Source: a virus
Taxonomy: Duplodnaviria; Caudoviricetes
IMG/VR virus record: IMGVR_UViG_3300045996_002689
Location: 484-64,483 of that record
DNA length: 64,000 nt
Reading direction: 5' to 3' (one strand)
A model generated the notes under the pieces. The model was not told the DNA's origin. It was given only the letters and a program-made list of their open reading frames with translations, and did no database searches. Below are positions 1,030-17,895 of this stretch, piece after piece. Every line of letters begins with the position of its first letter. The stretch's first letter is position 1. The translations under genes and the position numbers were made by a program.

Positions 1030-1042
1030 AGGCTACGCACAG

Positions 1043-3785: not shown

Positions 3786-3797
3786 GGGGATAAACTC

Positions 3798-4445
3798 ATG
3801 GACAGAAAAATGGGTGGCGTGAGTGCATTTAACTTGTTGCTTGGCTTTCCCCCGCCAACGCCGAAAGTAGAAGCAGAAGCGGAGCCGGAAGAATCACTCC
3901 TGCTGCCCATTGTCGACGAGGTAGACATCCAGGGCAACCGTATCTGGCGCGTGTCTCTAGGGGACATTGACTTTGACATAAGTTTTTGGCGGGTGACAGA
4001 GCGACCAGGCTTGCCGCCCTTGCCCAATTGTTACGCGGCGCGTGTGTGGGTGGCTACGCCAGAGTACAGGACGCTCAAGCCCTTGATCATGTACCACTCG
4101 CTTCTTGATCGCAGGCAGGTGACGCGCACAAGTGTTCTTGTCGAAATGATTTTTCAGGCAAACTTTAGCGTGAACTTTCGCCCCTTTGCGCAGAGCGTAT
4201 CTTCTTTGGGCTTGTACTGCGTAGGCATTACCGAGGCAAACCAGTATGCCTATGGCTGGATCAACCAAGCCGTTGGCGCGGCAAAGTTTTTGAATGAGGC
4301 GGGGATCGACAAGGGGAAAATCCAATACCTGTGGGCATGTGCCCTAGACGCACACGGGCCTATAGTAACGAACGTTACGGGCGACTTGAGAGTAAAACTA
4401 CGAAAAGCACAGGAGATGGCAGATGGCAAAGCGCAAGGTAATTGA
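3798..4445 (+). CDS. hypothetical protein
   Basis: 215 aa, RBS AGGGGG, operon packing. Confidence 0.7.
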   Translation: MDRKMGGVSAFNLLLGFPPPTPKVEAEAEPEESLLLPIVDEVDIQGNRIWRVSLGDIDFDISFWRVTERPGLPPLPNCYAARVWVATPEYRTLKPLIMYHSLLDRRQVTRTSVLVEMIFQANFSVNFRPFAQSVSSLGLYCVGITEANQYAYGWINQAVGAAKFLNEAGIDKGKIQYLWACALDAHGPIVTNVTGDLRVKLRKAQEMADGKAQGN

Positions 4446-4890
4446 CAGGGAAGCGACGACAATGGAATTGCCTGTAACCAGCAATATCTGTGTGGACTGC
4501 AAGCGCGAAATCGCAGTCACAGATGGGCAAGGAGGTACAGGCTACGGGGTCAGTGAACAGGGGGACAGAGTGTGTTACTCCTGTTGTGGTTATCGCGATA
4601 AAGGCGACATGATCCTGGAGGGAAAAGCTGTGCTTTTTTGGCACGCAGGCGAGCTAACCAATTGGCCTGGCACGTTGCGATTTGGCAGGGTAACGACAAG
4701 GGTGGCGCGGGCTGGCTTCACCGGACGCAGGCTATACCTGACTTTTATCGGGCCAGATGGCTACGTGTGGATCGGCAACCGTAACGCAGACGGGTGGGAC
4801 GAAATTGTGCGCGTCAAGCGTTCCAGCAGAAAATCCCTCCTGACGCTAGGCTTGCACCAGACAAGGGGGCAGGTAACGCTTGCGGGATGA
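4423..4890 (+). CDS. hypothetical protein with Zn-binding motifs
   Basis: CVDC and CYSC motifs; AGGAG RBS. Confidence 0.7.
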   Translation: MAKRKVIDREATTMELPVTSNICVDCKREIAVTDGQGGTGYGVSEQGDRVCYSCCGYRDKGDMILEGKAVLFWHAGELTNWPGTLRFGRVTTRVARAGFTGRRLYLTFIGPDGYVWIGNRNADGWDEIVRVKRSSRKSLLTLGLHQTRGQVTLAG

Positions 4891-4961
4891 GTTATCTCGC
4901 GGTAGACTTTGGGGGACTGGCAAGTGGGCCAGTCCCCTCTTACATTTATGGAGATAAGACC

Positions 4962-5267
4962 ATGCCCAACGAAGGCGAAGAAGTGCAACCCAAATTTCAC
5001 GTCTGGAATTTTAGGCTGACGCGTACCAGCATCCCGCAGCAATTTGAGTTTGGCAATGCCTTGACCAAACGCGAGGCGGGGGATCGCATTGCCAAACAAC
5101 TTGGCATGAAAGAGCTACCCTATGGCGCGGTGCTTTCGCAGCGCGAGCTAGAGCGGCTGGAGCCACTTGAAGCGCAGCCAGAGCAAGAAACCGAGCCGGA
5201 AGAAAAACCCCAAACACGCACAGCGGAGAAACCCAATGAACGAGACGGCAAAGGACGCGCACGCTAG
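4962..5267 (+). CDS. hypothetical protein
   Basis: In-frame ATG after GGAG; start uncertain, 4887 possible. Confidence 0.55.
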   Translation: MPNEGEEVQPKFHVWNFRLTRTSIPQQFEFGNALTKREAGDRIAKQLGMKELPYGAVLSQRELERLEPLEAQPEQETEPEEKPQTRTAEKPNERDGKGRAR

Positions 5268-5535
5268 TCCAGCCAGGATAAAAATTGTAAGCCTGAGATA
5301 TTTTGGCTACGGCTATAAGTTTACCGTACAAACTTTTTACCCAAACGGGGCTGTCCACCGGAGCCTTGCTTGCGCTACCTACGGCAACGGCATGGGGTTG
5401 ATTGTGGCCGGTCAACCGGTCAACTTGGGGCTAAACTGGCGCGGTATGACTTTGGAGGAAGCGCAAGCCAAGCTAGAAGCCCTTTTTGCCGACAATCCCA
5501 GGTGGCTTGTCACGGGCAACCAACGCGTAGGGTAA
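5236..5535 (+). CDS. hypothetical protein
   Basis: In-frame ATG after GGAGA. Confidence 0.6.
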   Translation: MNETAKDAHASPARIKIVSLRYFGYGYKFTVQTFYPNGAVHRSLACATYGNGMGLIVAGQPVNLGLNWRGMTLEEAQAKLEALFADNPRWLVTGNQRVG

Positions 5536-5649
5536 CGGTCTGAGTATGGTCTTAGACTTGTCCAGCAACCGCCCCCAAACCCCGCTATACTAGGGGCAAG
5601 CGCAGATGTGAGAGCGCAGGACAACACACAACACAGGAGAACTAGGGAA
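5534..5649 (+). promoter_or_regulatory. repeated early promoter/leader, copy 2
   Basis: AACGGTCTGAGTATGGTCTTAGACTTGTCCAGCAACCGCCC...CCGCTATACTAGGGG...ACAGGAGAACTAGGGAA-ATG. Confidence 0.8.
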
Positions 5650-6129
5650 ATGTACGAACACTTGCGTATCATGGCGGGGGAGCGCAAAATCAGCCAGGTG
5701 CTTTTTGCGTGTGGCGACAAGCAACCGGAGTATGCGCTGTTGGCTTTTTCGTTTGGCGACAACGAAATCACCTGTGTGGAAAAACTAGAAACCTACACAC
5801 AGGCGGGCGCGCTGGGCGTGGCGGAACGCGCCGCAGGACTTAGCACTTATCACGACAAGCCCATCACGGCGATTGCCATTGCTGCGCCAATGGGCCAGGA
5901 TAGCCCTACCTGGGCCTGCTATGCCACCGATCATCATATGCAGGTGGACTTGAGCTACCTTGCGCCTTTTGACCACGAAGGCACGACGGACTTTGGGCGT
6001 ACTCCTGTTGTCGAAACGCATCCGGTTTTTAATGCGCTGGCGATGGTCTTGACTGATTGCTGGAGCTTTTTGCAGGACGAAGGCAAGTGCGAATTGCATG
6101 TACCCGCAGAAATGGAGTTATCGCAATAA
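5650..6129 (+). CDS. hypothetical protein
   Basis: ATG directly after the conserved leader. Confidence 0.75.
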   Translation: MYEHLRIMAGERKISQVLFACGDKQPEYALLAFSFGDNEITCVEKLETYTQAGALGVAERAAGLSTYHDKPITAIAIAAPMGQDSPTWACYATDHHMQVDLSYLAPFDHEGTTDFGRTPVVETHPVFNALAMVLTDCWSFLQDEGKCELHVPAEMELSQ

Positions 6130-6359
6130 TGGCAATGTACTTGTCTTTGCGCTGTAACCAGGGGGAATCTGCTTTGGCTCGCATCGAGCGAGCCAAGCTG
6201 CCATCACAGGAACCCGCGCCGTTGCCTGCCGATGCCTACAAAGGGCCAATCCAACGCGATAGATTTGGCTGGCAACCCGCTCCAGGAAATGTAAATATCT
6301 TGGGCGACGTGACTGAGTTTAGCGGGAAAATCTCATACTACATCTGCCAACGAAAGTGA
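6129..6359 (+). CDS. hypothetical protein
   Basis: TAATG translational coupling with the upstream gene. Confidence 0.55.
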   Translation: MAMYLSLRCNQGESALARIERAKLPSQEPAPLPADAYKGPIQRDRFGWQPAPGNVNILGDVTEFSGKISYYICQRK

Positions 6360-6374
6360 GAACTAGGGGACACC

Positions 6375-6683
6375 ATGAACCAGAACGAAGCGGACTACCT
6401 GTTGGGGTGGAACGACGCCCATGGTGAACTTTTCGCCAGGTCGCAGTTTTTGCTGAACGATAACTATATGCAGGGCTACAACGACGGCTGCGATGAGTTG
6501 ATCTACCAAGCGGGGTGGGACGCGGGCTATTGCGGCGAGGATGCCGACGAGTCATGTGTTTATCTGGACAAGTACATGCAGGGATACCAGGACGGGCGTG
6601 CCGAGAACCAGCGCGAAGAACAACAACACCTTAAGAAACTGGGGAGGATCACGGGCCATGCCAAAACCAGCCTACTATATTGA
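6375..6683 (+). CDS. hypothetical protein with four YxxG[WY]xx[GA] repeats
   Basis: YLLGWNDA, YMQGYNDG, YQAGWDAG, YMQGYQDG; CTAGGGG leader. Confidence 0.7.
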   Translation: MNQNEADYLLGWNDAHGELFARSQFLLNDNYMQGYNDGCDELIYQAGWDAGYCGEDADESCVYLDKYMQGYQDGRAENQREEQQHLKKLGRITGHAKTSLLY

Positions 6684-6990
6684 GGTTGACACCTACTGGC
6701 AAGATAGCCCTAGCTTTTTTGTGGGGCCATTTGCCAGCCGCCAGGAAGCAACCAACTGGCACGCAAGCGCACCCGAAGGCGCAAACCTGTGGTTGTCGAG
6801 TAGCATATGCGGGGGCGACATCAGGAGCGCATGGCGCGTCTATGCAAACGCCTTGAGCCAAACCGAGGCGCGCAAGCGTGGCCTAAAAGATGACTATGGG
6901 CATGGCTACAACATCCTGCCTGCCCACACAGAGCCAACCGCCGCCGCCTTGTCGGTCGCCAAGATGGAGCTATACGAGATATTAGGGTAG
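6658..6990 (+). CDS. hypothetical protein
   Basis: GGAGG RBS, ends just before a terminator. Confidence 0.65.
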   Translation: MPKPAYYIEVDTYWQDSPSFFVGPFASRQEATNWHASAPEGANLWLSSSICGGDIRSAWRVYANALSQTEARKRGLKDDYGHGYNILPAHTEPTAAALSVAKMELYEILG

Positions 6991-6998
6991 GACGTGCC

Positions 6999-7034
6999 GC
7001 CCCTCTTGGGTAAATCTCAAGAGGGGCATGTTTT
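6999..7034 (+). terminator. intrinsic terminator
   Basis: GCCCCTCTTG...CAAGAGGGGC then TGTTTT. Confidence 0.7.
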
Positions 7035-7359
7035 ATAAATCACCAACCAAGCAAAACTTTTCCTCAATAAATTCTACACCGTAGGTTTTTGTAAATATCC
7101 CAACCAAATACTCAAGTTTACATAAGATTATCACGCGACCAAAAGCTACCTACTTTACATAACGCATGGGCGCATTGGGTGGAGGTGCAGAGGTGGGCCT
7201 GTTGTGGGGGCTGTGGCACACACGCCAGCATCTCCCCAGGGCAACGTAGAGGGGACTAGGTGACGTGATAGCATCCCATAGGTACATCCATAGCCTTATT
7301 GCGCAAAAATAAGCTTGTAGCGGCTTTATTTTGCCCCAGGAACTAAATACTCTGGAATA

Positions 7360-7443
7360 AATTTCAAAAAAATTTTTATGGGGGTGGGCAGGAATTCGCA
7401 AACGCGTCTGCAAAAAATAGCCAGGGATCGACCTTATAGGGGG
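7360..7443. repeat. boundary element copy B
   Basis: Diverged direct repeat of 878-960. Confidence 0.85.
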
Positions 7444-7514
7444 TCGCGGCGGGGCACAGGGTAGCCCGCACACGCGGGGGCCATAAGATTATGTCAATAC
7501 GAACATGGGTTCTA

Positions 7515-7530
7515 GGGATTATGTCAATAA
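7515..7530 (+). repeat. left arm of 16-bp perfect inverted repeat flanking the AAA cassette
   Basis: GGGATTATGTCAATAA; reverse complement at 12690-12705; further ATTATGTCAA copies at 7488 and 7541. Confidence 0.85.
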
Positions 7531-7687
7531 ACTTACCAGCATTATGTCAAGTGTAAACTGCTGCAAAATTTGCTGTCACAAAATGTTGCTGAACTTGACA
7601 CTTGTTATTGTTGCGCCAAAATTATACCCATCTGTAGGCTTGCGCCATTGCGCCAAAAACTCATGCTCGAATATCATGTATCAAGTA

Positions 7688-7716
7688 TTGACACGATAAG
7701 TATATGATGCTAAGAT
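7688..7716 (+). promoter_or_regulatory. strong sigma70-type promoter
   Basis: TTGACA-17 nt-TAAGAT with extended -10 TG. Confidence 0.75.
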
Positions 7717-7764
7717 ACAGACCGGACGTTTTTTTCAGAGAAAAACACAGGAGAACACAGGGGA

Positions 7765-8031
7765 ATGAACGCACAGCAGATTAGACGTAATGCAGTCAAC
7801 GCACAGCGGTACACACCAATGACACAGTGGAATACAGTAGACAACACACCGGAACGCTTTCTTTTGGTACAAGAGGAACCCGAAAGCAACTTATTTTTGA
7901 TCGTGGATGAATGGCTTTACGAGCGTGAATACTGGATACTGCGCGCCGTGGTCGCTCTTTTGGTACTCAAGAGCATTACAAGTACAGATATAAGCAACGT
8001 GGTTAACCTGATTGCTCGTATCGTCAACTAA
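7765..8031 (+). CDS. hypothetical protein, possible C-terminal membrane segment
   Basis: 88 aa, ACAGGAGAACACAGGGGA leader. Confidence 0.7.
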   Translation: MNAQQIRRNAVNAQRYTPMTQWNTVDNTPERFLLVQEEPESNLFLIVDEWLYEREYWILRAVVALLVLKSITSTDISNVVNLIARIVN

Positions 8032-8052
8032 CAAAGAACAGGACTAGGGACA

Positions 8053-8289
8053 ATGGCAACTTTTGGGGAGAACACAATTGGGGGCAAATGCATCGCAGAG
8101 ATGCAGGCGCAAGGGTACAAGTACGCGGGTTTTACGACCGGACAATTTTCGTTGCGCAAGGGGAGCAATCTGTACCGTAAAGTTACGACACTGGGTCTAT
8201 CGATTGAAAATGTAGCAGTACGGCGCGGCGCGAAAATGCGTCATCGCACACAGGGTACGCAATTGCTCATTTTTGTCAAGGCAGAATAG
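8053..8289 (+). CDS. small basic hypothetical protein
   Basis: 78 aa, GGACTAGGGACA leader. Confidence 0.7.
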   Translation: MATFGENTIGGKCIAEMQAQGYKYAGFTTGQFSLRKGSNLYRKVTTLGLSIENVAVRRGAKMRHRTQGTQLLIFVKAE

Positions 8290-8301
8290 GACTAGGGGAC
8301 A

Positions 8302-10035
8302 ATGACAACTTACCTTGAGACAATCAGTAAACAGTTTACAGCGGAATCTAATCACGCTTTTGTGCTACACGGTAACACGCGCGATTTACAACTTGGCGCA
8401 AGTGGATCATGTAGCTTGGTCAATCACATGATCGGTGTATTCAGCCAACTAGAATCGCCGCGACTGGTCGCAGTCTATCGCGTGGGGATCGGCTGGCAAT
8501 TTGCGGTAGATAGTGACAAGGCGAAATTTAGCGAGATCACCGGACTAGCATCCGACAATAGCGGCGCGTTGGCTGGACTTGCCAACACAGATGACCAGCT
8601 ACCAATTGACACAGCTACAGCAATTGGTCTGATTGATCTTGCAATGCGACAAAGCAAAGTTGCTGTCGTGTGTGTTGTGGATCGGGCGGAATTGGTCTGT
8701 GCCAACGCGACATACGGCACGATGTCACCATCCGACAAGGCAGTCTTGTCTATTCTGCAAGCATTAGCCGCGGATGCGTCGGTGGCGGACACGCGTAATC
8801 TACTCATCCTTGTCACCGATACATTGTCAGACTTGCATAGCTCATTGCGTTTAGCGTCAAGTCGGTTTTATGCCATACAGATTGTGCCGCCAGACTACAA
8901 CGAACGTTTGGAAATTGCGCGTCAGGTACTCACGCAACTTGAAACTACGCACAATTGCCAGCTAGAAATCAGCGCGGAGCAATTCGCGCAAGCAACGTCG
9001 ATGATGACGCGCTACGGTTTGCTTGACGTGCTTTTGGATGCCAAGCAAAGCGGCAAACTCACAAAGGCGCAAGTGCGCACAGTCAAAGCGCAAGTCATGT
9101 CACAAGAGTATGGAGACATACTGGAACCACTTGATCCAATCGAATCGGGCTGGCGCGGGGTGGCTGGCATGGCACAGCTAAAAGCCTACTTCGATACCAT
9201 TGTCGCGGACATGCTATCTGGCAATCTATCGGATGTGCCCGCGGGTATTTTGTGCGCAGGCGCGGCGGGACTAGGCAAAACACACTTTATGAGATGCGTC
9301 GCGGGTGAAACTGGCTTGCCTGTGATCAACCTGAACATTGGTCGCATACTGGGATCATTGGTCGGTGAATCGGAAGGGAATCTAGAGCGCGCATTGACAG
9401 CCATCCGTGGTGCCGCGCCGTGTATGGTAGTGCTTGACGAAATCGAAACTACGTTCCCAGACCGATCAACACAGGGCGCACAAGGCGATAGCGGCATCGG
9501 ACAGCGTATTCTCAAGAGAATGTTAGAGGAATTGTCAAACGCAGACAATCGCGGCCGCGTGGTATGGATCGGGATCACCAACTTTCCCCAAAAGCTTGAC
9601 GCGGCACTCTCGCGCGCGGGTCGGTTTGACATTACGGTTGCTTTCCTTCCGCCGACCGAAAGCGAACGCGTCGCATTGGTCGAGCTATATTGTGCCAAGT
9701 ATGACATGTTGATTCCGTCGCAAAAAAGCCTGCTAGATCATGCTGGCAAGCTGGCGGGTTACACCAATGCGGAAATCGAGAACGTTGTGCGCAAGGCGCG
9801 TCAAATTTGTGTAGATCGATGGCAAGATGGTCAGGTAAGTCTAGCCATTACCGACGCAATTAGCCGCGTGCGCGCCAACACTCGCGACGTGCAAGTCATG
9901 ACCTTAAATGCACTCGCGGCAGTCAACGATAGCGACTTGTTACCGGATGCCTACATCGACCAATGGCGCAACGTCACAGGGCAAGTAAGCACAGCTACCA
10001 CGCAAAAATCAGAGACGCGCAAAAGCCTATTTTAG
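8302..10035 (+). CDS. AAA+ ATPase, Ycf46/SpoVK-like (degenerate N-terminal AAA plus active C-terminal AAA)
   Basis: Walker A GAAGLGKT, pore-loop region SLVGESE, Walker B VVLDEIE, SRH TNFPQKLDAALSRAGRFD. Confidence 0.9.
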   Translation: MTTYLETISKQFTAESNHAFVLHGNTRDLQLGASGSCSLVNHMIGVFSQLESPRLVAVYRVGIGWQFAVDSDKAKFSEITGLASDNSGALAGLANTDDQLPIDTATAIGLIDLAMRQSKVAVVCVVDRAELVCANATYGTMSPSDKAVLSILQALAADASVADTRNLLILVTDTLSDLHSSLRLASSRFYAIQIVPPDYNERLEIARQVLTQLETTHNCQLEISAEQFAQATSMMTRYGLLDVLLDAKQSGKLTKAQVRTVKAQVMSQEYGDILEPLDPIESGWRGVAGMAQLKAYFDTIVADMLSGNLSDVPAGILCAGAAGLGKTHFMRCVAGETGLPVINLNIGRILGSLVGESEGNLERALTAIRGAAPCMVVLDEIETTFPDRSTQGAQGDSGIGQRILKRMLEELSNADNRGRVVWIGITNFPQKLDAALSRAGRFDITVAFLPPTESERVALVELYCAKYDMLIPSQKSLLDHAGKLAGYTNAEIENVVRKARQICVDRWQDGQVSLAITDAISRVRANTRDVQVMTLNALAAVNDSDLLPDAYIDQWRNVTGQVSTATTQKSETRKSLF

Positions 10036-10062
10036 CTTTGCGCGTCGATAGAGCGTTGGTAC

Positions 10063-10091
10063 TTGACAGACTAACGCTCTATCGCTATACT
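10063..10091 (+). promoter_or_regulatory. sigma70-type promoter embedded in an inverted repeat
   Basis: TTGACA-17 nt-TATACT; the -35 box is the loop of a 15-bp IR at 10046-10084. Confidence 0.75.
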
Positions 10092-10138
10092 TGCGTTTAG
10101 TACGGTAATTTTTTGAGAACACAGGAGAAACTAGGAAC

Positions 10139-11452
10139 ATGGAAACTTTGACTGGCAGTAACTTAGATGCTTTGCAAGTCTTGCGCGACAGGTTTGCGCG
10201 AGTAACCACCGACGTTACATTGTCGCGTTTTGATTGGCGCGCGCTACTAGAGAGCGGTGCGGTGGCGACTTTGAGCATAGGGCGTTACCGTGGTGTAAAA
10301 GCACTCACGGCGGACGATCTAGGGCTTGACGTCGAAGAAATGAAGGAAGTAGACAAGATTGTACAGCTAGGACACAGACTACTTCTACCACAGGATGTGT
10401 TGAACCAATTTAACACAGTCGAAACGCGTGCGCGCCAAGTGTTGCGCCAATACTGTTTGTCGACGCCCGCGGGGTTGTTTTTGCCAGCTAAGAGCAACGA
10501 TAACTGCGCGAGTGCTATGTTGGAGTTCAAGACCAAGTTTTTTGATCTTGTAGAGCTATTGGTTCAGAACCTACCGGATCACAAACGCGCGATAGAGCGT
10601 CAGTACACCGACTTAGCCAAACAGGTTTACAACCGGTTGCGCGACAGTGGCAAGTATGACTACTCGTTAGCGGAATGGGAGTTTGTAGACACCTTTGTAA
10701 ACCGCTGTATGGCGCAATTTCCAAATGAACAAGAGTTGAGACGGTCTTTCCGGTTTGCCTTGCGTTTGTCGTTTGTTCCTGTGCCCGAAACCAATGGCGA
10801 AACGCCCAGTTTTGCCAATGCCACAGATGATTTACTCCGCCAGCGTAAGATGGTGATACAGGATACGGAAATTGCGCGGCGCGAGTTGATTGACGGTTTT
10901 ATCTCCAGTATCCAATCAGAGGTCTACACGCTGGTGAATACGGTACTAACGGACGTGCTAGGCAGTATAGAGAAAAACGCGCAATTGCAATCTAGGTCGG
11001 TTGTGCAGCTTAAAAACCTAGTCGAAAAGGTTAGTGCGCTAAATTTTTGGGGTGATAAAAGACTAGAGATGATCCAGTCGGAGATAGAATCACTCTTGAG
11101 TGTAGGCAGCAGCAAACGCGATCTAGGCTTGAATCAACAAGTACTGCGTGAATTGCAGTTACAATCCAAAGTAGTGTTGGGCAAGCTTGAACGCGTGGAA
11201 CGCGGCGACCTAGAGATTAAGGCAGAATCGCCCAAAGTGGCATTGTCCAATGCTACAGACCAATGGCGCGGCACAATAATCAATGTATCGCGTCCCGCGC
11301 TGACTGCGAGTGAAATAGACGCCGCCAACAAAGCGGAGTATGAGCGGACAGGTAAGTTACCACAAGTCGAGATGTTTGGCGCGACTTATCAGATAGTGGA
11401 GAACAAACCGACTTTCACACTGGGCACGTCAAGCGGACGCAAGTTGTTTTAA
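10139..11452 (+). CDS. DUF3150-like helical protein
   Basis: LGHRLLLP...FNTVETRARQVL...GLFLP...FP..QELRRSF pattern; next to a phage AAA ATPase. Confidence 0.55.
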   Translation: METLTGSNLDALQVLRDRFARVTTDVTLSRFDWRALLESGAVATLSIGRYRGVKALTADDLGLDVEEMKEVDKIVQLGHRLLLPQDVLNQFNTVETRARQVLRQYCLSTPAGLFLPAKSNDNCASAMLEFKTKFFDLVELLVQNLPDHKRAIERQYTDLAKQVYNRLRDSGKYDYSLAEWEFVDTFVNRCMAQFPNEQELRRSFRFALRLSFVPVPETNGETPSFANATDDLLRQRKMVIQDTEIARRELIDGFISSIQSEVYTLVNTVLTDVLGSIEKNAQLQSRSVVQLKNLVEKVSALNFWGDKRLEMIQSEIESLLSVGSSKRDLGLNQQVLRELQLQSKVVLGKLERVERGDLEIKAESPKVALSNATDQWRGTIINVSRPALTASEIDAANKAEYERTGKLPQVEMFGATYQIVENKPTFTLGTSSGRKLF

Positions 11453-11477
11453 TTTTTCACACAGGAGAAACTAGATC

Positions 11478-11876
11478 ATGGCATGTAACAGCGTAGCAGT
11501 CAGTAGTGCAATCGTCAGTCAGGTGAATCTCGACCTTACTGAAATGAAGAACCTGTTATCTTCGATCACAGGGATCAAAGCGGAAAGTATTTATGCGTAT
11601 GCGTATGATGCTACTGAGTCTTACGCACAAGTCACCCTAAATGGCAATGTAGAAGTGTATATCGAGCAAATTGACGGTAAGATCACGCTCAAGGTTTACA
11701 CGTCAAACCAAGCGACGGCGGACGCGACAAAAGCCAAACTTGAACCACTCCTGCAAAGTGGCATGGTGATTGCGCAACAGCGTACTGTGTTGCGCAGACT
11801 GGCAGAACTTGGCAAGCTAAGTAACGTCAAGCAAACCAATGGCGGGGTTGTCGCCAAGCTACAGATCACGATCTAG
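11478..11876 (+). CDS. DUF1257/Ycf35-like protein
   Basis: 132 aa, C-terminal Q...V......G....KQTNGGVVAKLQI pattern; position in a Ycf46-type operon. Confidence 0.45.
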   Translation: MACNSVAVSSAIVSQVNLDLTEMKNLLSSITGIKAESIYAYAYDATESYAQVTLNGNVEVYIEQIDGKITLKVYTSNQATADATKAKLEPLLQSGMVIAQQRTVLRRLAELGKLSNVKQTNGGVVAKLQITI

Positions 11877-11888
11877 GGGAATCGACAA

Positions 11889-12125
11889 ATGTCTAAAACA
11901 GGTAAAGTAATCACGTTGGACTTTGGCATGACAGCAGACGGACAAATTGCTTTTTTTGTGCGCGGCGATGCGACTAGCGAAGATGGCAACAAGGCAATCA
12001 AGTTGTTGATGGACGCACTCCAGACCGAAAACATAACGCTGAGTGGTATCACGGAACCCGAACGTCACAGGGACGATACCAGAATACAAGTCGTACACGA
12101 TCTAACGCACCTGCATAACCACTAG
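11889..12125 (+). CDS. DUF2997-like small protein
   Basis: 78 aa, ITLDFGMTADGQIAFFVRG; His-rich tail; last gene of the Ycf46-type operon. Confidence 0.45.
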   Translation: MSKTGKVITLDFGMTADGQIAFFVRGDATSEDGNKAIKLLMDALQTENITLSGITEPERHRDDTRIQVVHDLTHLHNH

Positions 12126-12152
12126 ATTGTTCCTCACAACCGAATAGAGTAC

Positions 12153-12185
12153 AAAAGCCTACAATCCAATGTAGGCTTTTTCTTT
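12153..12185 (+). terminator. intrinsic terminator
   Basis: AAAAGCCTACA-ATCCAA-TGTAGGCTTTTT. Confidence 0.85.
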
Positions 12186-12689
12186 GTCTATTGCGCAACG
12201 AAAGTTGCCGCACTTTACCGTTATTTGAAATCGCTTGTGAGGCACGTAGAAGGCTCTATTTGAGGTCTAGATACGTTTGTGTGTGATTGTATCACTACAT
12301 GGTCTATCGCCATTTAGAGCGGCGATTTTAGCCCACAACAGACCATGTGCAGCAATCACCCTAGAACCCACGATAGGGACATGCCTATGCTTGCATACAG
12401 AATTGCAAGTTGCAGTACTGCGCGGCCAGCATAACAGTACTGCATCCACTATGGTACATGGCGATGACTGCGTGCAAGCAACAGTGGGCAATTGCGATAC
12501 AGAACAATCAACAGTGGGTACAGGGTAGTGTGCAGCATGACGCAAAGCACAGGGGGAATAGAAGGTCTGGGATCGTCGCGTGGATTTATCGCGCTAAGTA
12601 CATACCCCATAGCATACCCGCAATAATCTTTACAGGTAGATAGCTTGTGACAATGTTACGTTGTCCCAAGCAACATAACTTGCGTGAGG

Positions 12690-12705
12690 TTATTGACATA
12701 ATCCC
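12690..12705 (-). repeat. right arm of 16-bp inverted repeat
   Basis: TTATTGACATAATCCC is the reverse complement of 7515-7530. Confidence 0.85.
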
Positions 12706-13357
12706 AAGAGGGGTCATGCCCTTATTATGGTAAAGTCAGACCCCTCTTGCAGTCCATCTCGCACGCTACCGAAAATCCCCTGAAAAAAATAAAAATTTCC
12801 GAAACCCTTTCGTTTCTCGTTCAAGCGAAAGGGTTTACGCTATTAAAGTAAGGCTTTCGGAAGGGTTCTGGAAGGTCAGTTCCTTACTCATTTAATGAGT
12901 ATTCAATCAATGAGTAGCCCCTTCCCCACTCCCTGCCCTCCTGTTGTCGAATACTCCCCTACCCCTGGTAGCCCCCCTCCCTACCACCCCCTGCTTGCGC
13001 TGGGGGAGTGGCTATGCTAGGATGAAGATCGAAAGCATGTGGATATGCGTGTAAGGGTGGGGGCCAGCACCCCTGCCAAACCCCAAGACCCCCTTGTAAA
13101 CTGCCTAGGCTTCTACGCAAGACCCTCTACCCCGTTCAAATTGGTGTGCGCCGGTAGAGGGTTTTGCGCGTCTGCAAGAAATGTTGCGGGCACCCATTTT
13201 TCCAAAAATTACTATCCGAAAAAATAGATCAAAAGCTTTGTTTTTCCGTGCCCCCTCAAAAACCTCTCTCCTTCAAAAATTTATTCAAAAAAAGTTGCAT
13301 TGACTTTCTCGCCCCACCATGCTACAGTGGGCGCGTAGGAGCTAACGAGATAATCCC

Positions 13358-13855
13358 ATGCACACGACCTACCTGCCTTCTATCTTTGGCGACCCGCAAG
13401 GCGACTGGGGGTGCGGTATGAACGCCCAGGCCAAGACCTTTGTCCGCGCCTGGCTGAGTCTTTTGGGCGACAAGGGCGCAGAAATGCGCTGCGACCCCAG
13501 GTTGGTCGCCGCCGCCCAAGCCCATGCCGACTACCTCCACGCCCGCACCGAAGCAGAGATTCTGGCCCGCGCCCACATTCCCCATGCCTCCCACTACGGT
13601 GCCGACTGGTCGATGTCCAATGACCGCGCCCGCGCCCACGGCTACCCCCTCCCCGACAACTACCTGCCCCTCCACAATAACTTAGAAAGCATCACCCGCC
13701 ACTTCGACACCCCCACCCAAGCGGCCCGCGCCCTCTACGACCACGATACCCACCACGACCATATGGCGCTCGTCGGCGGCTTTGCCCACCAAGTGATCTA
13801 TGGCGTGGGCGCAACAGGCCATGATTATGTCGTGTTGACCGCCCCACCCGCTTAA
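13358..13855 (+). CDS. CAP (SCP-like) domain protein
   Basis: LVAAAQAHADYL...SHYGADWS...RARAHGY...ESI...HHDHM...GVG; N-terminal YLPSI motif. Confidence 0.75.
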   Translation: MHTTYLPSIFGDPQGDWGCGMNAQAKTFVRAWLSLLGDKGAEMRCDPRLVAAAQAHADYLHARTEAEILARAHIPHASHYGADWSMSNDRARAHGYPLPDNYLPLHNNLESITRHFDTPTQAARALYDHDTHHDHMALVGGFAHQVIYGVGATGHDYVVLTAPPA

Positions 13856-13865
13856 AAACTGCTAC

Positions 13866-13893
13866 TTGACATTGTGCGCAAATCTGCTACAAT
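13866..13893 (+). promoter_or_regulatory. sigma70-type promoter
   Basis: TTGACA-16 nt-TACAAT with extended -10 TG. Confidence 0.6.
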
Positions 13894-14048
13894 GTCCGCA
13901 AGGCGCTTGTCGTCCGCCTTTTCCACTCCCGCCTATGGACAACGGCGAAAAAATCCTGCTTTTGATATTGGCGCTCTGCGTGGGCACCTGGCTGGCCCTG
14001 GGCCTTTACGCGGTTCTTTGCTGCGCATAGCATTATGGAGATAAACTT

Positions 14049-14261
14049 ATGGTCAAACGCAACAGTAGCTTGGGCGGCAAAGTAGACCCCGAATGGCGGC
14101 GAGCCTATGCCGCCACGCCTGCGCCTGAACCGTGCAAGTTCAAGCCCCCCTGCGGCGAGCGGTGCTGCCTAGACCCCGACGTCGACCATGAGTTGCACAT
14201 CTGCCGCAACCCAAGCTGTCTCTGCCACTCCAGAGAACGCTACGAAGGCAGGCTCCCATGA
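14049..14261 (+). CDS. small Cys/His-rich protein
   Basis: GGAG RBS; seven Cys. Confidence 0.6.
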   Translation: MVKRNSSLGGKVDPEWRRAYAATPAPEPCKFKPPCGERCCLDPDVDHELHICRNPSCLCHSRERYEGRLP

Positions 14262-14536
14262 CCAACCCTAACCCGCCGCAAGCTACGGAGCCGCTGTGGA
14301 GTAGTGACCGCATTGATGAACGAGTCGCGGCACTTGAATATGAGTATGTTGATTCAGGTGCTTTTATTGTGGACGCCAGCGATGTCTACTTACTCTGCCG
14401 AGAAATACAATACGACATGCAACAGGAGATCGACCGCCTCACCGCAGAGAATGAGGCGTTAGCGCGCGCAAGCCCCTTGCTTGTCTTTTTGGGAGGGATT
14501 CGGATCGGCGTTGTTTTATCAAGAGAGGATTTGTGA
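14258..14536 (+). CDS. hypothetical protein
   Basis: ATGA overlap; short coiled coil. Confidence 0.6.
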   Translation: MTNPNPPQATEPLWSSDRIDERVAALEYEYVDSGAFIVDASDVYLLCREIQYDMQQEIDRLTAENEALARASPLLVFLGGIRIGVVLSREDL

Positions 14537-14537
14537 G

Positions 14538-14861
14538 ATGGACAGACGTAAATTTTTGGGGGTAAGCACATTGTCGGTAACAGGACTCTTTGTGGGACAA
14601 GCGCCGCCAAGAGAAGAGACGGTCGAGCAGAAGTTGGGCAGACCGCCGGTTGCCGACATCGGACTCAAGTTTCATGGCGACAGCATCCACTTCCCAGGCT
14701 TTTTTACGGTCTTTGTGGACGGCAAACCTTACGGCCGCATGCGCGCGGGCGACCGGTACGAGGCCACGGGTATGGTGCATGTGGTCGCCTACATGAACTT
14801 CGAGACGACGCCCGCCTTTGACCGGTGGCTCACTCCAGGCGAGAGCTTGGAGATCGGCTAA
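14538..14861 (+). CDS. hypothetical protein with twin-arginine-like N-terminus
   Basis: MDRRKFLG followed by a short hydrophobic stretch; GAGG RBS. Confidence 0.6.
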   Translation: MDRRKFLGVSTLSVTGLFVGQAPPREETVEQKLGRPPVADIGLKFHGDSIHFPGFFTVFVDGKPYGRMRAGDRYEATGMVHVVAYMNFETTPAFDRWLTPGESLEIG

Positions 14862-14888
14862 AAGTTTAGCGGGGAAAGGACTAGGGGA

Positions 14889-15344
14889 ATGAGTGGCATC
14901 TTGATTGCGGTGGGCTTTTTTGCTTTTGGTTTTTTGGCGAGCAGCGTGCTGATCCTGTGGATCGTGGTGGGGGAGTACGACAAGATCGAGGCGGCGGTGA
15001 TAAGGCGCGCCCGCGAGAGGGAAAACGCTTCTTCTGCCACGCCATCGGAGTGGGTAGAGGGGCATGCGCTCACGGCAAAGGCGTTCACGCTGCCCGCCAT
15101 AGGCGTGTTCTGTTTTGCCTACCTGTCGGTGGCGTGGGGGGACTTTCGCAAAGGGCAGATCGTGATCGTCAAGTACATGGAAGATACGGACAAACAGAAC
15201 GTTCGTGTGGGCACGGTCAAGTTTGTTCTCAGCAACGTGTCGTCGGACGGCAAGATGTTGATGCTGGCGCGCATGGAGGGCGGCGCGGACGGCGCGACGA
15301 TTCCCCAGGGAAGCCCGCTCCTTGCCGTCAAGGGAGAGGCGTAG
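14889..15344 (+). CDS. hypothetical membrane protein
   Basis: GGACTAGGGGA leader; hydrophobic N-terminus. Confidence 0.6.
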   Translation: MSGILIAVGFFAFGFLASSVLILWIVVGEYDKIEAAVIRRARERENASSATPSEWVEGHALTAKAFTLPAIGVFCFAYLSVAWGDFRKGQIVIVKYMEDTDKQNVRVGTVKFVLSNVSSDGKMLMLARMEGGADGATIPQGSPLLAVKGEA

Positions 15345-15455
15345 CATGGAAGGTTCACTTGCCCAAACCGCCTGGGTTGTCGTCATCTTTGTGGTCTTTT
15401 TTGTGGTGGGGTGGGTGGCGGGAGAAGCCGCCAGAAGAAAGAAGGGGTGAGGGCA

Positions 15456-15752
15456 ATGAGGCAGGAAGAGTTGCGCGAGAAGTGGATGGAGTTGGTGAGG
15501 GAGGACATCGAGAGCTTGCGCAGGGCGTACCTCTTGTCGCTGCCCCTAGGCAGGATGGAGCAGGAGGACGCGGCGACAGAGGGGAGCGCCTTTGCCACGC
15601 TTGCCCATATCAGCCACTATTTTGTCGAGATGGCGCATTTTCGGGACGTGTTGTGGTTGCAGAGGCGTTTTGGCTATGCGCCGCAAGACGCCGCCAGTGA
15701 AGGAGGGGAGGATAACCATTATGTTTTGGACGATTTGGCTGCTTGGCTTTAA
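15456..15752 (+). CDS. hypothetical protein
   Basis: GAGGG RBS, in-frame ATG. Confidence 0.55.
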   Translation: MRQEELREKWMELVREDIESLRRAYLLSLPLGRMEQEDAATEGSAFATLAHISHYFVEMAHFRDVLWLQRRFGYAPQDAASEGGEDNHYVLDDLAAWL

Positions 15753-15961
15753 GACCTGGGGGTGGTAGAATAGGGGGGCAGGGACGATCCCTGTGCCAAA
15801 AGTCTAACCAAGCTGTCGCGTAAACTGCAATGGCGGGGGAGCGTCCAACTCTTGAGAACGGGGGGACGACTCTCCCGCTGTTGTTTGGCGCGCTTGCTAC
15901 CAAGACTTTTGTGTGATAACTTTTTGAGGCGACCGCTTTTTCTCTACGAAGGGAAGGGATC

Positions 15962-16366
15962 ATGCCTGCAACACTTCTGACCAACATGCAAGGGCCAATC
16001 GACCAGGACAACCCCCTGGTGATTGCCGCCCTCCCTCTTGCCGAAAACGGCTCCGCCCTAACGCCTCAGTACGCGGCGATTGATGCGGCCACCAGTGGCA
16101 ACAACACGCTGGTGGCCGCGGTCACGGGCAAACGCATCCGCGTGGTGGCGCTCATGCTGGTGGCGGGCGGCACCGTGAATGTGCGTTTCGAGAGCGGGGC
16201 TGACGGCACGGCTTTATCGGGACAAATTCAACTGGTGGCGCAGGCGGGTTTCGCCCTGCCCTTTAACCCCGCTGGCTGGTTGCAGACCGCGGTGGGTGCC
16301 CTGCTCAACCTGGAGCTTTCGGCGGCGGTATCGGTCGATGGCATGCTGGTCTACGTTGAGGTATAG
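15962..16366 (+). CDS. putative virion decoration / head-fibre base protein
   Basis: 134-aa beta-rich Ala/Gly/Val protein heading the fibre-like genes. Confidence 0.5.
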   Translation: MPATLLTNMQGPIDQDNPLVIAALPLAENGSALTPQYAAIDAATSGNNTLVAAVTGKRIRVVALMLVAGGTVNVRFESGADGTALSGQIQLVAQAGFALPFNPAGWLQTAVGALLNLELSAAVSVDGMLVYVEV

Positions 16367-16369
16367 GGC

Positions 16370-17497
16370 ATGTCACGCATGGCGCTTTTGGGCGCAGGAT
16401 CGGGCGGAGGGAGTGGCCTCACCTTCCTCCTGCGCGATGACTTTACAACCGCCGCTTCCGCGCCGCTGGCAAGTCCGCGTTCAGCCGAGCCAGGGCCAGG
16501 GACGCTGACGCTGGTGCAGACGGATGGACAGTTTTCAATTAGTAGCGCAAAGCTGTCATTTCCGGTGCAGACTACGCCCGCTTGGGGCGATTTGGGATTT
16601 CACGGCGCTTCGCAGAGTCGTATTGCTGGTCGTGCTGTCCTGGCAACGGTGCGCGTCAACGCTATCAACACCTATGCTTTTTGGGGATGGGACGATAGCT
16701 CAGCATTGAGTCAAGCCAGCACTATCGAGACATTTGTTCTCAATGGGGGCAACTCCAGGTTGGCGCGTTGGACGGCTGGCTCGTTTGCGCCAGACGAGTT
16801 GTTTGCTCATGCGGCCACAACGGATTACCAGTCAGCTATCATATTGCGCGGGGCAGGTGCTTACCTACTTCTAAAAGGTGGGGTGCTTTCAAACTGGACG
16901 CTCGTATGGGTATCGAATACCGGAACAACAACGCCGCTCTATCCTGTGTTCAACAATTTCAACACAGTCGGCACACTCGACCTCTTCCGCGTCCTCGACC
17001 TTGCCGCACCGTTTGACACCGACTATGGCTTGGCGACTCAGCGATTGTCGGGCAGCCAGAGCGCAGGACAAACGTTCACGCATGAGGCGAACTGTGTACT
17101 TGAATATGTGCAAACAACTATGCCAAGCGGGGGCGGCACAAATTCAATTATTACGTTTCGCCGCCAAGACGACAACAATCGTTGGGCAGTTGGTTGTAAC
17201 GAAACTGGGGCATTGTTTCTGCTGGAATATATAGCCGGAGTTCAGAACATTCGGGGTTTGGTTGGTGCTGTTATGGCGAGCGGCCATCGAGTTGTCGTAG
17301 TAGCCGATGGGTCTACCATCCGTGTCTACACTAACAACGTTTTGCGGATCACATATACAAGTGCGAGCAACTTTGCGACCATGACTGCGGGTAAAGTAGA
17401 AACGCTGGCTGGATCATCCGTAGTCAGCGACATTGTTTTGTGGCCGCGCCAACTTGGTGTAGCCGCGGCAGCGTTATTAGATTTGGCGGTGGCCTGA
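16370..17497 (+). CDS. putative head fibre / lectin-like (beta-sandwich) protein 1
   Basis: N-terminal ALLGAG...LLRDDFT; beta-rich, Thr/Ser/Gly-rich. Confidence 0.55.
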   Translation: MSRMALLGAGSGGGSGLTFLLRDDFTTAASAPLASPRSAEPGPGTLTLVQTDGQFSISSAKLSFPVQTTPAWGDLGFHGASQSRIAGRAVLATVRVNAINTYAFWGWDDSSALSQASTIETFVLNGGNSRLARWTAGSFAPDELFAHAATTDYQSAIILRGAGAYLLLKGGVLSNWTLVWVSNTGTTTPLYPVFNNFNTVGTLDLFRVLDLAAPFDTDYGLATQRLSGSQSAGQTFTHEANCVLEYVQTTMPSGGGTNSIITFRRQDDNNRWAVGCNETGALFLLEYIAGVQNIRGLVGAVMASGHRVVVVADGSTIRVYTNNVLRITYTSASNFATMTAGKVETLAGSSVVSDIVLWPRQLGVAAAALLDLAVA

Positions 17498-17895
17498 TGG
17501 CTAAAGCATTGGTTATTGCCAAAATGAAAACAGGCGCACTCACGCGCGGTCAAATCGACGTGCCGCAAGGCGTTAACTTTGTGCATGACGGCAGCGTGAT
17601 TTTGCCTGGAAATTACAAGCTTTTTGTCATCACGGGCACAGGGGCGCAACTCACCAGCGTCTCTCAGCACGCCAATTTTCTCGTCGGGCAGCAAATCTTG
17701 ATCAAGGCGGATGGCTCCTACGATTGGGAGAACGCGCACACAGCGATAGCGCCTGGAGCGATCACCACGATCAATACCTGGCTTGTCGCCAATGGGCACA
17801 CGCCTCTCCAGGCTGGCGACAACATCGTGACGCTGGTTCGCAAGTTCCAGCCGGACTATGAGCCTGGCACATGCGACGTTTTCGACGGCGGTTAG
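17497..17895 (+). CDS. hypothetical protein, possible fibre chaperone
   Basis: TGATG coupling to the upstream gene. Confidence 0.6.
   Translation: MAKALVIAKMKTGALTRGQIDVPQGVNFVHDGSVILPGNYKLFVITGTGAQLTSVSQHANFLVGQQILIKADGSYDWENAHTAIAPGAITTINTWLVANGHTPLQAGDNIVTLVRKFQPDYEPGTCDVFDGG

What the first reader, a model, noticed from the sequence alone, without database searches (positions are those of the whole stretch)
7480..12740. Inverted-repeat-flanked, restriction-site-depleted 5.2-kb compartment, possibly a first-injected segment
Seen: a perfect 16-bp inverted repeat (7515-7530 and 12690-12705) brackets six genes with two near-consensus sigma70 promoters and their own terminator. A sampled line here is about 50% GC against about 65% in a structural gene. 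By eye I found no CCWGG between 7426 and 12963, where roughly ten would be expected by chance and where the site is common elsewhere, and only two GGCC. The + strand is G-rich left of the block (about 7170-7480) and C-rich right of it (about 12900-13850). Established: T5 injects a restriction-site-poor first-step-transfer segment bounded by a repeat-rich stop signal. Inference: this is a pre-early compartment that enters or is exposed first, or else a recombinase-mobilised cassette.
Basis: partly seen in the sequence, partly recalled or inferred. Interest (0 to 1): 0.85.

Follow-up and report, generated by a model that had tools for sequence, protein, structure and literature searches.

The report
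CCWGG-free early operon of a phage
One early gene block of an uncultured soil phage has been kept free of a common restriction-enzyme word that the rest of its genome tolerates, which is a further example of a known phage trick rather than a new kind of element.

Summary
The window is nearly all of a 64,483-base phage genome. CCWGG occurs 338 times in the window but never between 7421 and 12964. That is the most extreme gap among 485 five-letter words tested, and CCWGG (with its superset CCNGG) is the only one of 768 palindromic patterns that is absent here yet tolerated elsewhere. The 16-base inverted repeat, the promoters, the terminator and the G-rich and C-rich flanks are all real.

The stretch is a conserved early operon: two lineage-specific small genes, then an AAA+ ATPase, a DUF3150 protein and two small proteins, with long conserved non-coding borders. 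Two diverged relatives keep the same operon in the same place and also lack CCWGG there (0 and 1 sites), although silent codon positions are saturated. So selection maintains the purge.

The best reading is DNA that must work before the phage is protected, like the T5 first-step-transfer region. Entry order could not be tested, and one relative's block carries sites that the rest of its genome avoids.

The repeat arms are outward-facing promoter-like motifs, not recombination sites, so the cassette reading is not supported. This scan has already noted similar site-free early blocks in at least eight other phage genomes.

The parts
7426..12963 (.). CCWGG-free compartment, bounded by the sites at 7421 and 12964
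7360..7443 (+). Non-coding border element: A/T tracts, then CTTATAGGGGG at 7433, followed by a G-rich run. A second copy lies at about 878-960. One copy sits just upstream of the block in each relative.
   Evidence: In this genome and in G001 the last CCWGG lies 12-13 bases before this motif.
7485..7553 (-). Three tandem copies of TTGACATAAT read on the - strand, pointing away from the block. The middle copy is the left arm of the inverted repeat (7515-7530).
7595..7716 (+). Two sigma-70-like promoters: TTGACA-16-CAAAAT at 7595 and TTGACA-17-TAAGAT with an upstream TG at 7688
7765..8031 (+). 88-aa ORF, no family match, not found in the relatives
8053..8289 (+). 78-aa basic ORF (pI 10.3), no family match, not found in the relatives
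8302..10035 (+). 577-aa classical AAA+ ATPase. The PF00004 domain covers residues 316-447; the roughly 300-residue N-terminal part has no family.
10063..10091 (+). Internal promoter-like site TTGACA-17-TATACT (11 of 12), preceded by a 15-base hairpin at 10046-10084
10139..11452 (+). 437-aa DUF3150 (PF11348) protein, mostly helical, with no solved-structure match
11478..11876 (+). 132-aa conserved protein of unknown function
11889..12125 (+). 78-aa conserved protein of unknown function
12153..12180 (+). Intrinsic-terminator-like hairpin of 11 pairs followed by a T run
12181..12689 (.). Non-coding tail. It holds a segment at 12407-12540 that exists as two alleles in the metagenomes, and the 17-base word GACAATGTTACGTTGTC at 12649-12665, which is identical in L081.
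   Evidence: The substitutions show no three-base periodicity (my count on the positions listed).
12690..12750 (+). Right arm of the inverted repeat (TATTGACATAATCCC, reading outward) followed by an 11-pair hairpin. The region folds well on both strands.

Best explanation
Positions 7421-12964 are one conserved early transcription unit of an integrase-bearing, uncultured soil phage. It runs from its own promoters through six genes to its own terminator and has long non-coding borders. Shown: selection keeps its DNA free of CCWGG in three diverged lineages, while the rest of each genome carries that word at the expected density. Inferred: hosts of this phage family commonly carry a CCWGG-cutting enzyme (EcoRII-like; the name is from recall). 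The rest of the genome is shielded from that enzyme by something that is not yet in place when this block is exposed. The simplest shield is time. The block would enter the cell, or have to act, before a protective function exists, as in the first-step-transfer DNA of T5 and the leading early region of T7-like phages. The protective function may be encoded in the block itself; the AAA+ ATPase with its DUF3150 partner is the obvious but untested candidate. The inverted repeat is not a recombination site. Its arms are copies of TTGACATAATCCC, an extended -10-like promoter or operator motif that faces outward at both borders.
For: 1. Size of the effect. There are 0 CCWGG in 5538 bases against 338 in the other 58.5 kb. 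It is the most extreme gap of 485 five-letter words. CCWGG, with its superset CCNGG, is the only one of 768 palindromic patterns absent here but tolerated elsewhere. Of 9 control segments of equal length, 7 flag no pattern and 2 flag one.
2. Not just composition. Synonymous-codon shuffles of the six genes give 4.8 sites (3 of 300 shuffles had none), and late-gene codon usage would give 18.7.
3. Conservation. The four-gene set lies in the same genomic position in G001 and L081. CCWGG counts there are 0 in 7969 bases (27.7 expected at the rest's density) and 1 in 6697 bases (12.5 expected). The AAA genes are only 34-37% identical at third codon positions, so the absence is maintained, not inherited.
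4. Same host pressures as the rest. The 24 hexamer palindromes missing from the rest occur once in the block against 31.8 expected. GGWCC and CCSGG are absent genome-wide. This argues against a recent foreign origin.
5. Extra purges in the relatives' blocks. G001 has 13 extra palindromic patterns missing, against 0-1 in 7 controls; L081 lacks CTNAG.
6. A second, wider purge. RGCGCY is absent from 728-13764, with 12.8 expected in the upstream operon alone and 123 copies elsewhere. Most extreme word gaps share a right end at 12.9-13.8 kb.
7. Long repeat-rich non-coding borders flank the block in all three genomes, as at the T5/BF23 first-step border (PMC10644984, passages).
8. Precedent. T5-like phages are restricted only when sites lie in the first-step region (PMC10644984, passages). 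Motifs in the first-injected region decide Type I sensitivity in Autographiviridae (PMC12455610, abstract).
Against: 1. No terminus is known. The contig ends are arbitrary, and the block lies 7-13 kb inside the record.
2. The phage carries a tyrosine integrase and a T4-type (Terminase_6) large terminase. That family includes headful packagers (recalled). Headful packaging would leave no fixed leading end.
3. Contig depth over the block is not doubled. A T5-style terminal repeat is therefore unlikely, though this is a weak measure.
4. The block is not uniformly the more protected part. CTAG is avoided in the rest (76 against 121.7 expected) but not in the block (26 against 21.3). In G001 the block carries AAGCTT 27 times and AGCGCT 8 times, while the rest of that genome has none.
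5. Near-consensus sigma-70 promoters are not special to the block. They occur from 0.8 to 26 kb.
6. Only three lineages could be examined out of at least 16 close AAA homologues.
7. No protein in the block resembles a known anti-restriction protein.
Confidence: 0.45

Rival explanations
1. The block is a module with its own evolutionary history and its own expression regime. It could be a prophage-expressed, immunity-like or accessory region flanked by outward-facing promoter or operator motifs, in the way the lambda immunity region is flanked by its two operator sets (recalled). Its odd word usage, including the lack of CCWGG, would reflect that history or regime rather than entry order.
For: The phage has an integrase. 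The block has its own promoters and terminator, lower GC (48.9% against 57.9%) and different codon usage, for example Gln CAA 61% against 22%. It tolerates CTAG, which the rest avoids. The three left-hand motif copies are spaced 30 and 23 bases apart and one inverted copy lies at the right border, an operator-like layout. The genes and repeat arrays next to the promoters differ between lineages, as immunity determinants do. G001's block carries AAGCTT and AGCGCT, which its late region lacks.
Against: The block is syntenic and orthologous in three lineages that diverged to saturation at silent sites, yet all lack CCWGG while all their late regions keep it. History alone would have been erased. 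The block shares the genome-wide avoidances. No repressor-like domain was found in it. A distant AAA/DUF3150 pair (L109) has 44 CCWGG in 3.3 kb, so the genes do not require the purge.
Confidence: 0.2
2. Methylation shadow. The hosts methylate CCWGG, so sites in most of the phage DNA arrive protected. The block is poorly methylated in the producing cell, for instance because it is densely occupied by a sequence-specific protein or by transcription. Only there are CCWGG sites dangerous and purged.
For: CCWGG in the rest is at its Markov expectation (336 against 356), as expected if those sites are harmless. The relatives' blocks are saturated with lineage-specific 7-8-letter words on both strands. 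This would fit dense binding by a lineage-specific protein.
Against: No cytosine methyltransferase was found in the ORFs scanned, only a Dam-like adenine enzyme. In this window's own block the repeated words are few. There is no direct evidence of any binding protein or of methylation state.
Confidence: 0.1
3. The block is a collapsed long terminal repeat, as in T5. Both of its sharp edges would then be repeat boundaries in a circularised assembly.
For: Both edges are sharp. Long non-coding repeat-rich borders are present. T5 and BF23 first-step genes lie in a terminal repeat of about 9.7-10 kb (PMC10644984, passages).
Against: K-mer depth of the contigs covering the block (6.4-7.3 in run X1, 4-5.8 in X2) is not higher than that of the flanks (6-8.8 and 4-6.8). 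Depth of assembled contigs is a crude measure.
Confidence: 0.05
4. The block is a cassette inverted or excised by a site-specific recombinase acting on the inverted repeat.
For: The 16-base perfect inverted repeat is beyond chance. A Xer-like tyrosine recombinase is encoded at 25164-26084.
Against: The motif reads TTGACATAATCCC and has the form of an extended -10 element, and -10-like words followed by CCC recur at other promoter-like sites. In G001 the flanking copies are direct, and in L081 the right-hand copy is split into a normal -35/-10 pair, so orientation is not conserved. Gene order and orientation are the same in all three genomes. Contigs of two runs show no joint. The recombinase lies 12 kb away.
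Confidence: 0.05

Closest known systems
First-step-transfer (pre-early) DNA of phage T5, BF23 and other Tequintavirus (PMC10644984, passages read; Davison and Brunel 1979 as cited there, not read)
   Same: It is a discrete block of several kb with its own host-type promoters. It lacks a restriction word that is common in the rest of the genome, and it is bordered by long non-coding, repeat-rich DNA. In the T5 group, restriction works only if sites lie in that block.
   Different: No terminal position or terminal repeat is shown here, and depth is not doubled. The phage carries an integrase. The genes (AAA+ ATPase, DUF3150) match no family annotated as a T5 pre-early function in the libraries searched. 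In this window only one word is specific to the block.
Leading early region of Autographiviridae (Murciavirus; PMC12455610, abstract read)
   Same: The position of a restriction motif, not its mere presence, decides sensitivity. The early region is variable and thought to hold anti-defence genes.
   Different: That case concerns Type I motifs in phages with a known leading end and their own RNA polymerase. No phage RNA polymerase was detected among the ORFs scanned here.
Site-free early blocks noted earlier in this scan (e1-6100757, e1-6097797, e1-5740158, e1-5965987, e1-6150396, e1-6140228, e1-6113322, e1-5326608)
   Same: These are sharp-edged early regions purged of restriction-type words, several involving CCWGG or CCAG/CTGG. 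Follow-up agents read them as T5-like leading DNA.
   Different: Those blocks mostly lose many palindromes at once. Here the whole genome is already heavily purged and the block adds essentially one word. These are unchecked AI notes on other genomes.
IetAS anti-phage defence (PADLOC model IetA)
   Same: The AAA domain (residues 308-525) matches IetA models, E 3.5e-21.
   Different: Only the generic AAA domain matches. No IetS-type protease is present in the block.

Membership tests
T5-type first-step-transfer region | Restriction sites absent from the block but present in the rest of the genome | tested here: met
   CCWGG counts are 0 against 338, and the pattern is conserved in two relatives.
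T5-type first-step-transfer region | Lies at the genome end that enters first | not testable with these tools
   Contig ends are arbitrary, and only assembled contigs of public runs were available.
T5-type first-step-transfer region | Lies inside a long direct terminal repeat, which would give doubled depth in an assembly | tested here: not met
   Contig depth over the block is about the same as over the flanks in two runs. This is a weak measure.
T5-type first-step-transfer region | Non-coding, repeat-rich border that could act as an injection stop signal | tested here: inconclusive
   Non-coding borders of 0.7 and 1.2 kb carry repeats and conserved elements. Their function is unknown.
T5-type first-step-transfer region | Homologues of T5 pre-early proteins (A1, A2, Dmp) | tested here: not met
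   PHROGs and Pfam scans of the six proteins returned only AAA-ATPase families and DUF3150.
Invertible or excisable recombinase cassette | Recombination sites in a conserved relative orientation at both ends | tested here: not met
   The sites are inverted here, direct in G001 and split in L081.
Invertible or excisable recombinase cassette | Both orientations, or an empty site, seen in sequence data | tested here: not met
   There are no joints in contigs of 2 runs, and orientation is the same in 3 genomes. Contigs drop rare variants.
IetAS defence system | IetA ATPase together with an IetS protease | tested here: not met
   Only the AAA domain matches, and no protease domain is present in the block.
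Lambda-like immunity region | Repressor gene between two outward-facing operator and promoter sets | tested here: inconclusive
   Outward-facing motif copies are present. No helix-turn-helix or repressor family was found in the block.

The most novel reading that the evidence does not exclude
An integrase-bearing soil phage family unrelated to T5 exposes its genome in two steps. A 5.5-7 kb beachhead operon goes first, and its AAA+ unfoldase/DUF3150 machine then shields the rest of the DNA from CCWGG-type and other nucleases. Each lineage has rewritten the beachhead DNA, coding and non-coding alike, into its own restricted vocabulary of safe words.
Probability: 0.2. Interest if true: 0.75.

Novelty: new member of a known kind. 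Interest (0 to 1): 0.5.

Why it matters
If the reading is right, word purges of this kind mark the DNA a phage relies on before it has disarmed its host. They would therefore point to candidate anti-defence genes without any culture; here those candidates are a conserved AAA+ ATPase/DUF3150 set of unknown function. It would also extend staged or protected genome delivery to a phage lineage that looks temperate. The case adds a caution for predicting restriction escape from site counts: where the sites lie matters, as PMC12455610 argues. Because the scan has met the same signature repeatedly, its value lies in the comparative detail and the candidate genes, not in the principle.

Tried and rejected
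Termini and inversion from public data. One search found two soil-metagenome DNA runs holding the stretch. Both are kept as assembled contigs only. Laid on window 1-20000, they showed no joints, no pile-ups of molecule ends and no loose ends. Contigs cannot show termini, so the entry question stays open. No RNA holder was listed, so expression timing could not be examined.

The contigs of the closest AAA homologues could therefore not be read: P0002 (68% identity, 62,230-base contig), P0017 and others, at least 16. The metagenome scan gave L081 and L082, and the viral scans gave G001/G002 and the distant L109. G002 turned out to be 99.99% identical to G001 and is not counted as a separate lineage. 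The genome-contig scan found only distant AAA proteins at 26-34% identity, which I did not follow. blastn against cultured phages found nothing. The best terminase match is 47.5% identical.

Function. No Rfam family was found in the window. The DUF3150 model (mean pLDDT 69.8) had no Foldseek match in the PDB at E <= 0.001, and the wider structural library was not available. The only paper containing 'DUF3150' was irrelevant by its title and abstract in the listing. None of the six proteins is strongly acidic like a DNA mimic. No canonical DnaA boxes lie at the borders.

Ideas dropped. (a) General palindrome richness of the block. It disappears once counts are split by word: the block lacks the same palindromes as the rest and concentrates on a few allowed ones. 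(b) Real direct terminal repeats in G001. A 179-aa ORF spans the 120-base end overlap, so it is an assembly overlap. (c) CWG depletion. It is strong in G001 and L081 but absent in this window. (d) A coding gene or diversity-generating element at 12407-12540. The substitutions hit all four bases, show no three-base periodicity and include a one-base deletion.
Full report
What the window is. The window is bases 484-64483 of a single 64,483-base virus record. It encodes a T4-type large terminase (27369-28784), a major head protein and a fibre-like 2039-aa protein with an endosialidase-chaperone end. It also encodes a peptidase/endolysin-domain protein, a DnaB-like helicase, DnaD-like and primase-C-terminal proteins, a Dam-like methyltransferase and a tyrosine integrase at 25164-26084. 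Cultured phages share no DNA similarity with the 7000-13400 stretch, and the best terminase match is 47.5% identical. Two soil-metagenome runs hold the stretch.

Check of the observation.
- The 16-base perfect inverted repeat (7515-7530 / 12690-12705) extends to 37 bases at 78% complementarity. It exceeds the longest match in 500 shuffles of the two borders, which was 12.
- Six + strand ORFs lie between two promoter-like sites (7595, 7688) and a terminator-like hairpin (12153-12180). A third promoter-like site lies at 10063.
- CCWGG occurs 338 times in the window and not once between 7421 and 12964. The gap is 5543 bases and the next largest is 1325.
- GGCC occurs 3 times in the block against 11.1 expected.
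- GC is 48.9% in the block against 57.9% outside. Structural genes reach 59-61%, not 65%.
- The left flank is G-rich and the right flank is C-rich, as stated.

Is the gap more than chance? The expected CCWGG count in the block depends on the model:
- 10.0 from base composition;
- 6.8 from a maximal-order Markov model of the block itself;
- 32.0 at the density of the rest of the window;
- 4.8 in synonymous-codon shuffles of the six genes with their own codon usage (3 of 300 shuffles had none);
- 18.7 if the same proteins used late-gene codons.

Two unbiased scans agree. Of 485 canonical five-letter words with at least 40 copies, CCAGG/CCTGG has the most extreme gap in the genome, and it is this one. 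Of 768 palindromic IUPAC patterns of 4-6 letters, only CCWGG and its superset CCNGG are absent from the block (at least 6 expected) while tolerated in the remainder. Among 9 control segments of equal length, 7 flag no pattern and 2 flag one. In this window, therefore, the number of block-specific words is not unusual. The size of this one effect is.

The genomic background. The whole genome is already heavily purged. GGWCC is absent where about 99 are expected in the rest, and CCSGG is absent where about 54 are expected. GGCC and CCGG are halved. Twenty-four of the 64 hexamer palindromes never occur outside the block. Those 24 occur once inside the block against 31.8 expected. The block therefore obeys all the avoidances of the rest and adds CCWGG. 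That is the nesting expected if the block meets everything the rest meets, plus one more enzyme. It argues against a recent arrival from a phage of other hosts. The nesting is not perfect. CTAG is under-represented in the rest (76 against 121.7 expected) but not in the block (26 against 21.3).

What the block encodes. The 577-aa protein is a classical AAA+ ATPase (PF00004, residues 316-447). Only that domain matches PHROG ATPase families and PADLOC IetA models. The 437-aa protein is DUF3150 (PF11348). The nearest ESM Atlas clusters are mostly viral. An AlphaFold2 model built from 12 sequences (mean pLDDT 69.8) is largely helical and has no Foldseek match in the PDB at E <= 0.001. The four remaining small proteins match no family, and none is strongly acidic. 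Function therefore remains unknown. Calling the AAA+/DUF3150 set an anti-restriction machine is inference only.

Relatives. A protein search found at least 16 close homologues of the ATPase, at 43-68% identity, all from metagenomes. These are the window itself, G001 (a 62,690-base viral contig, also fetched as L082/L085) and L081 (part of a 23.9-kb metagenome contig). G002 is 99.99% identical to G001 and is not counted.

G001 is collinear with the window from the integrase through the morphogenesis, lysis and replication genes. L081 links the window's last genes directly to its first, so the record's ends are arbitrary. The 120-base end overlap of G001 lies inside a 179-aa ORF, so it is an assembly overlap and not a real terminal repeat.

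In all three genomes the ATPase, DUF3150, 132-aa and 78-aa genes follow each other in the same position. The small genes upstream differ between lineages.

The purge is conserved.
- G001 has 190 CCWGG but none between 937 and 8911. That gap is 7974 bases; the next largest is 1637; 27.7 sites are expected at the rest's density.
- L081 has one CCWGG in 6697 bases where 12.5 are expected.
- The three ATPase genes are 57-61% identical in protein but only 34-37% identical at third codon positions. Silent sites have turned over completely, so the absence must be renewed by selection in each lineage.
- A distant phage contig (L109, ATPase 31.5% and DUF3150 29% identical) has 44 CCWGG in the 3.3 kb of these two genes and no site avoidance at all. 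The purge belongs to this phage family's ecology, not to the genes.

In this genome and in G001 the last CCWGG on the left lies 12-13 bases before a conserved non-coding motif, CTTATAG(G/A)GGG followed by a G run. That motif precedes the block in all three genomes.

The relatives go further. In G001 and L081 the block uses far fewer distinct six-letter words than the rest: about 1300-1570 per 3 kb against about 1700-1950. This lies 23-25 standard deviations below synonymous-codon shuffles, against 8-11 for late genes and for this window's own block. Codon usage is extreme and lineage-specific, for example Gln CAA 95% in G001 and Glu GAG 91% in L081. CAG/CTG is depleted two- to three-fold. G001's block lacks 13 palindromic patterns that its rest tolerates, including GCWGC and RGATCY, against 0-1 in 7 controls. 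L081's block lacks CTNAG. The same few words fill the non-coding arrays and the coding DNA, on both strands.

This fits a block under many more sequence constraints than the rest. One fact cuts the other way. G001's block holds AAGCTT 27 times and AGCGCT 8 times, while the other 55 kb of that genome holds none. A simple model in which the block meets everything first does not predict that.

A wider compartment in this window. RGCGCY is absent from 728 to 13764, with 12.8 expected in the upstream operon alone, yet occurs 123 times beyond. Many of the most extreme word gaps share a right end at 12.9-13.8 kb but have scattered left ends. There is thus a sharp compositional break just right of the block and a graded one to its left. 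This would suit entry from a right-hand end. It would equally suit a junction between modules of different composition, so I do not treat it as a test.

The inverted repeat. Both arms read TATTGACATAATCCC when read outward. There are three tandem copies of TTGACATAAT on the - strand at the left border, spaced 30 and 23 bases apart, and one on the + strand at the right border. The word has the form of an extended -10 element (TG, one base, CATAAT). -10-like words followed by CCC recur at other promoter-like places in the genome: 1343, 13350 and 21952. In G001 the copies flanking the block are in direct orientation. In L081 the right-hand counterpart is an ordinary TTGACT-17-CATAAT pair. I therefore read the repeat as a pair of outward-facing promoter or operator motifs.

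The right-hand non-coding tail is unusually conserved for genomes this diverged. Mean column identity with G001 over 291 aligned columns is 74%. A 17-base word is identical in L081. The region folds well on both strands, with z-scores of -3.95 and -4.29. Its function is unknown.

Mobility. Contigs of two metagenome runs show no inversion or deletion joint, and one contig crosses the left arm in the reference orientation. Orientation and position are the same in three genomes. The only recombinase gene lies 12 kb away. The cassette reading is not supported.

Entry order. This could not be tested. Depth of the contigs over the block (6.4-7.3 in X1, 4-5.8 in X2) is no higher than over the flanks, which speaks against a collapsed T5-style terminal repeat. 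The terminase belongs to the T4-type Pfam family. From recall, that family includes headful packagers, and with headful packaging there would be no fixed leading end. Near-consensus host-type promoters occur throughout 0.8-26 kb and are absent from the structural region. The block is thus one of several early units, not the only one.

Comparison with what is known. In T5-like phages, restriction and other nuclease defences act only when their sites lie in the first-step-transfer region. That region is followed by a long non-coding stretch rich in repeats (PMC10644984, passages read). In Murciavirus (Autographiviridae), a Type I motif matters only in the first-injected region (PMC12455610, abstract read). 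A preprint on T5 two-step injection was seen only in a search listing. The present block shares the signature but not the demonstrated position, the terminal repeat or the genes. This scan has already recorded at least eight other phage genomes with site-free early blocks that follow-up agents read in the same way. Two of those notes concern CCAG/CTGG, words that are also depleted in the G001 and L081 blocks. They are unchecked AI notes, but they lower the novelty of the principle.

Verdict. I put the reading 'DNA that must work before the phage is protected' at about 0.45. A module-specific history or expression regime comes next (0.2), then a methylation shadow (0.1), a collapsed terminal repeat (0.05) and a recombinase cassette (0.05). 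It is a new member of a known kind. Its value lies in the comparative evidence, in the restricted vocabulary of the relatives' blocks and in a conserved AAA+/DUF3150 gene set as a candidate early effector.

Noticed in passing
window 12407-12540: Contigs from both metagenome runs carry a second allele of this non-coding stretch: 30 substitutions and a one-base deletion within 134 bases. Both alleles are present in run X1. The substitutions show no codon periodicity.
   Followed up: partly
whole window: Site avoidance is extreme genome-wide. GGWCC count is 0 (about 99 expected) and CCSGG is 0 (about 54 expected). GGCC and CCGG are halved. Twenty-four of 64 hexamer palindromes are absent outside the block. 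The same holds in relatives G001 and L081, and L081 also lacks CCGG.
   Followed up: partly
window 728-13764: RGCGCY is absent from both early operons (12.8 expected in the first alone) but occurs 123 times in the rest. This is a second, wider compartment that shares the block's right-hand edge.
   Followed up: partly
window 878-960 and 7360-7443; L101 about 860-960; L081 about 8880-8985: A conserved non-coding element of A/T tracts, then CTTATAG(G/A)GGG and a G run. It occurs twice in this genome, before each early operon, and once before the block in each relative.
   Followed up: partly
L101 (G001) 942-7900: AAGCTT occurs 27 times and AGCGCT 8 times in the block and never in the other 55 kb of that genome. 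The 8-base palindrome CAAGCTTG occurs 9 times in the block.
   Followed up: partly
L101 1180-7600 and L081 9150-14860: The relatives' blocks, coding and non-coding alike, are built from a small lineage-specific set of 7-10-letter words on both strands (for example CCGGCAC in G001 and GAGGCAC in L081). They use far fewer distinct six-letter words than codon shuffles predict.
   Followed up: partly
window 12649-12665 and L081 14968-14984: An identical 17-base word (GACAATGTTACGTTGTC) lies in the non-coding tail of two genomes whose proteins are only about 60% identical. The surrounding 230 bases fold well on both strands.
   Followed up: partly
window 10021-10035 and 11438-11452: The AAA+ ATPase and the DUF3150 protein both end in ...RK(S)LF. 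The terminal F is invariant in 16 aligned ATPases, and the DUF3150 alignment consensus ends in KLF.
   Followed up: no
window 21991-22064: ARAGORN calls a tRNA-Arg (anticodon TCG) here, between two perfect TTGACA-17-TATAAT promoters at 21928 and 22142.
   Followed up: no
L109 7912-11251: A distant AAA+/DUF3150 gene pair (31.5% and 29% identity) lies in a 51.5-kb, 63% GC viral contig that shows no restriction-site avoidance. The pair therefore occurs beyond this phage family.
   Followed up: partly
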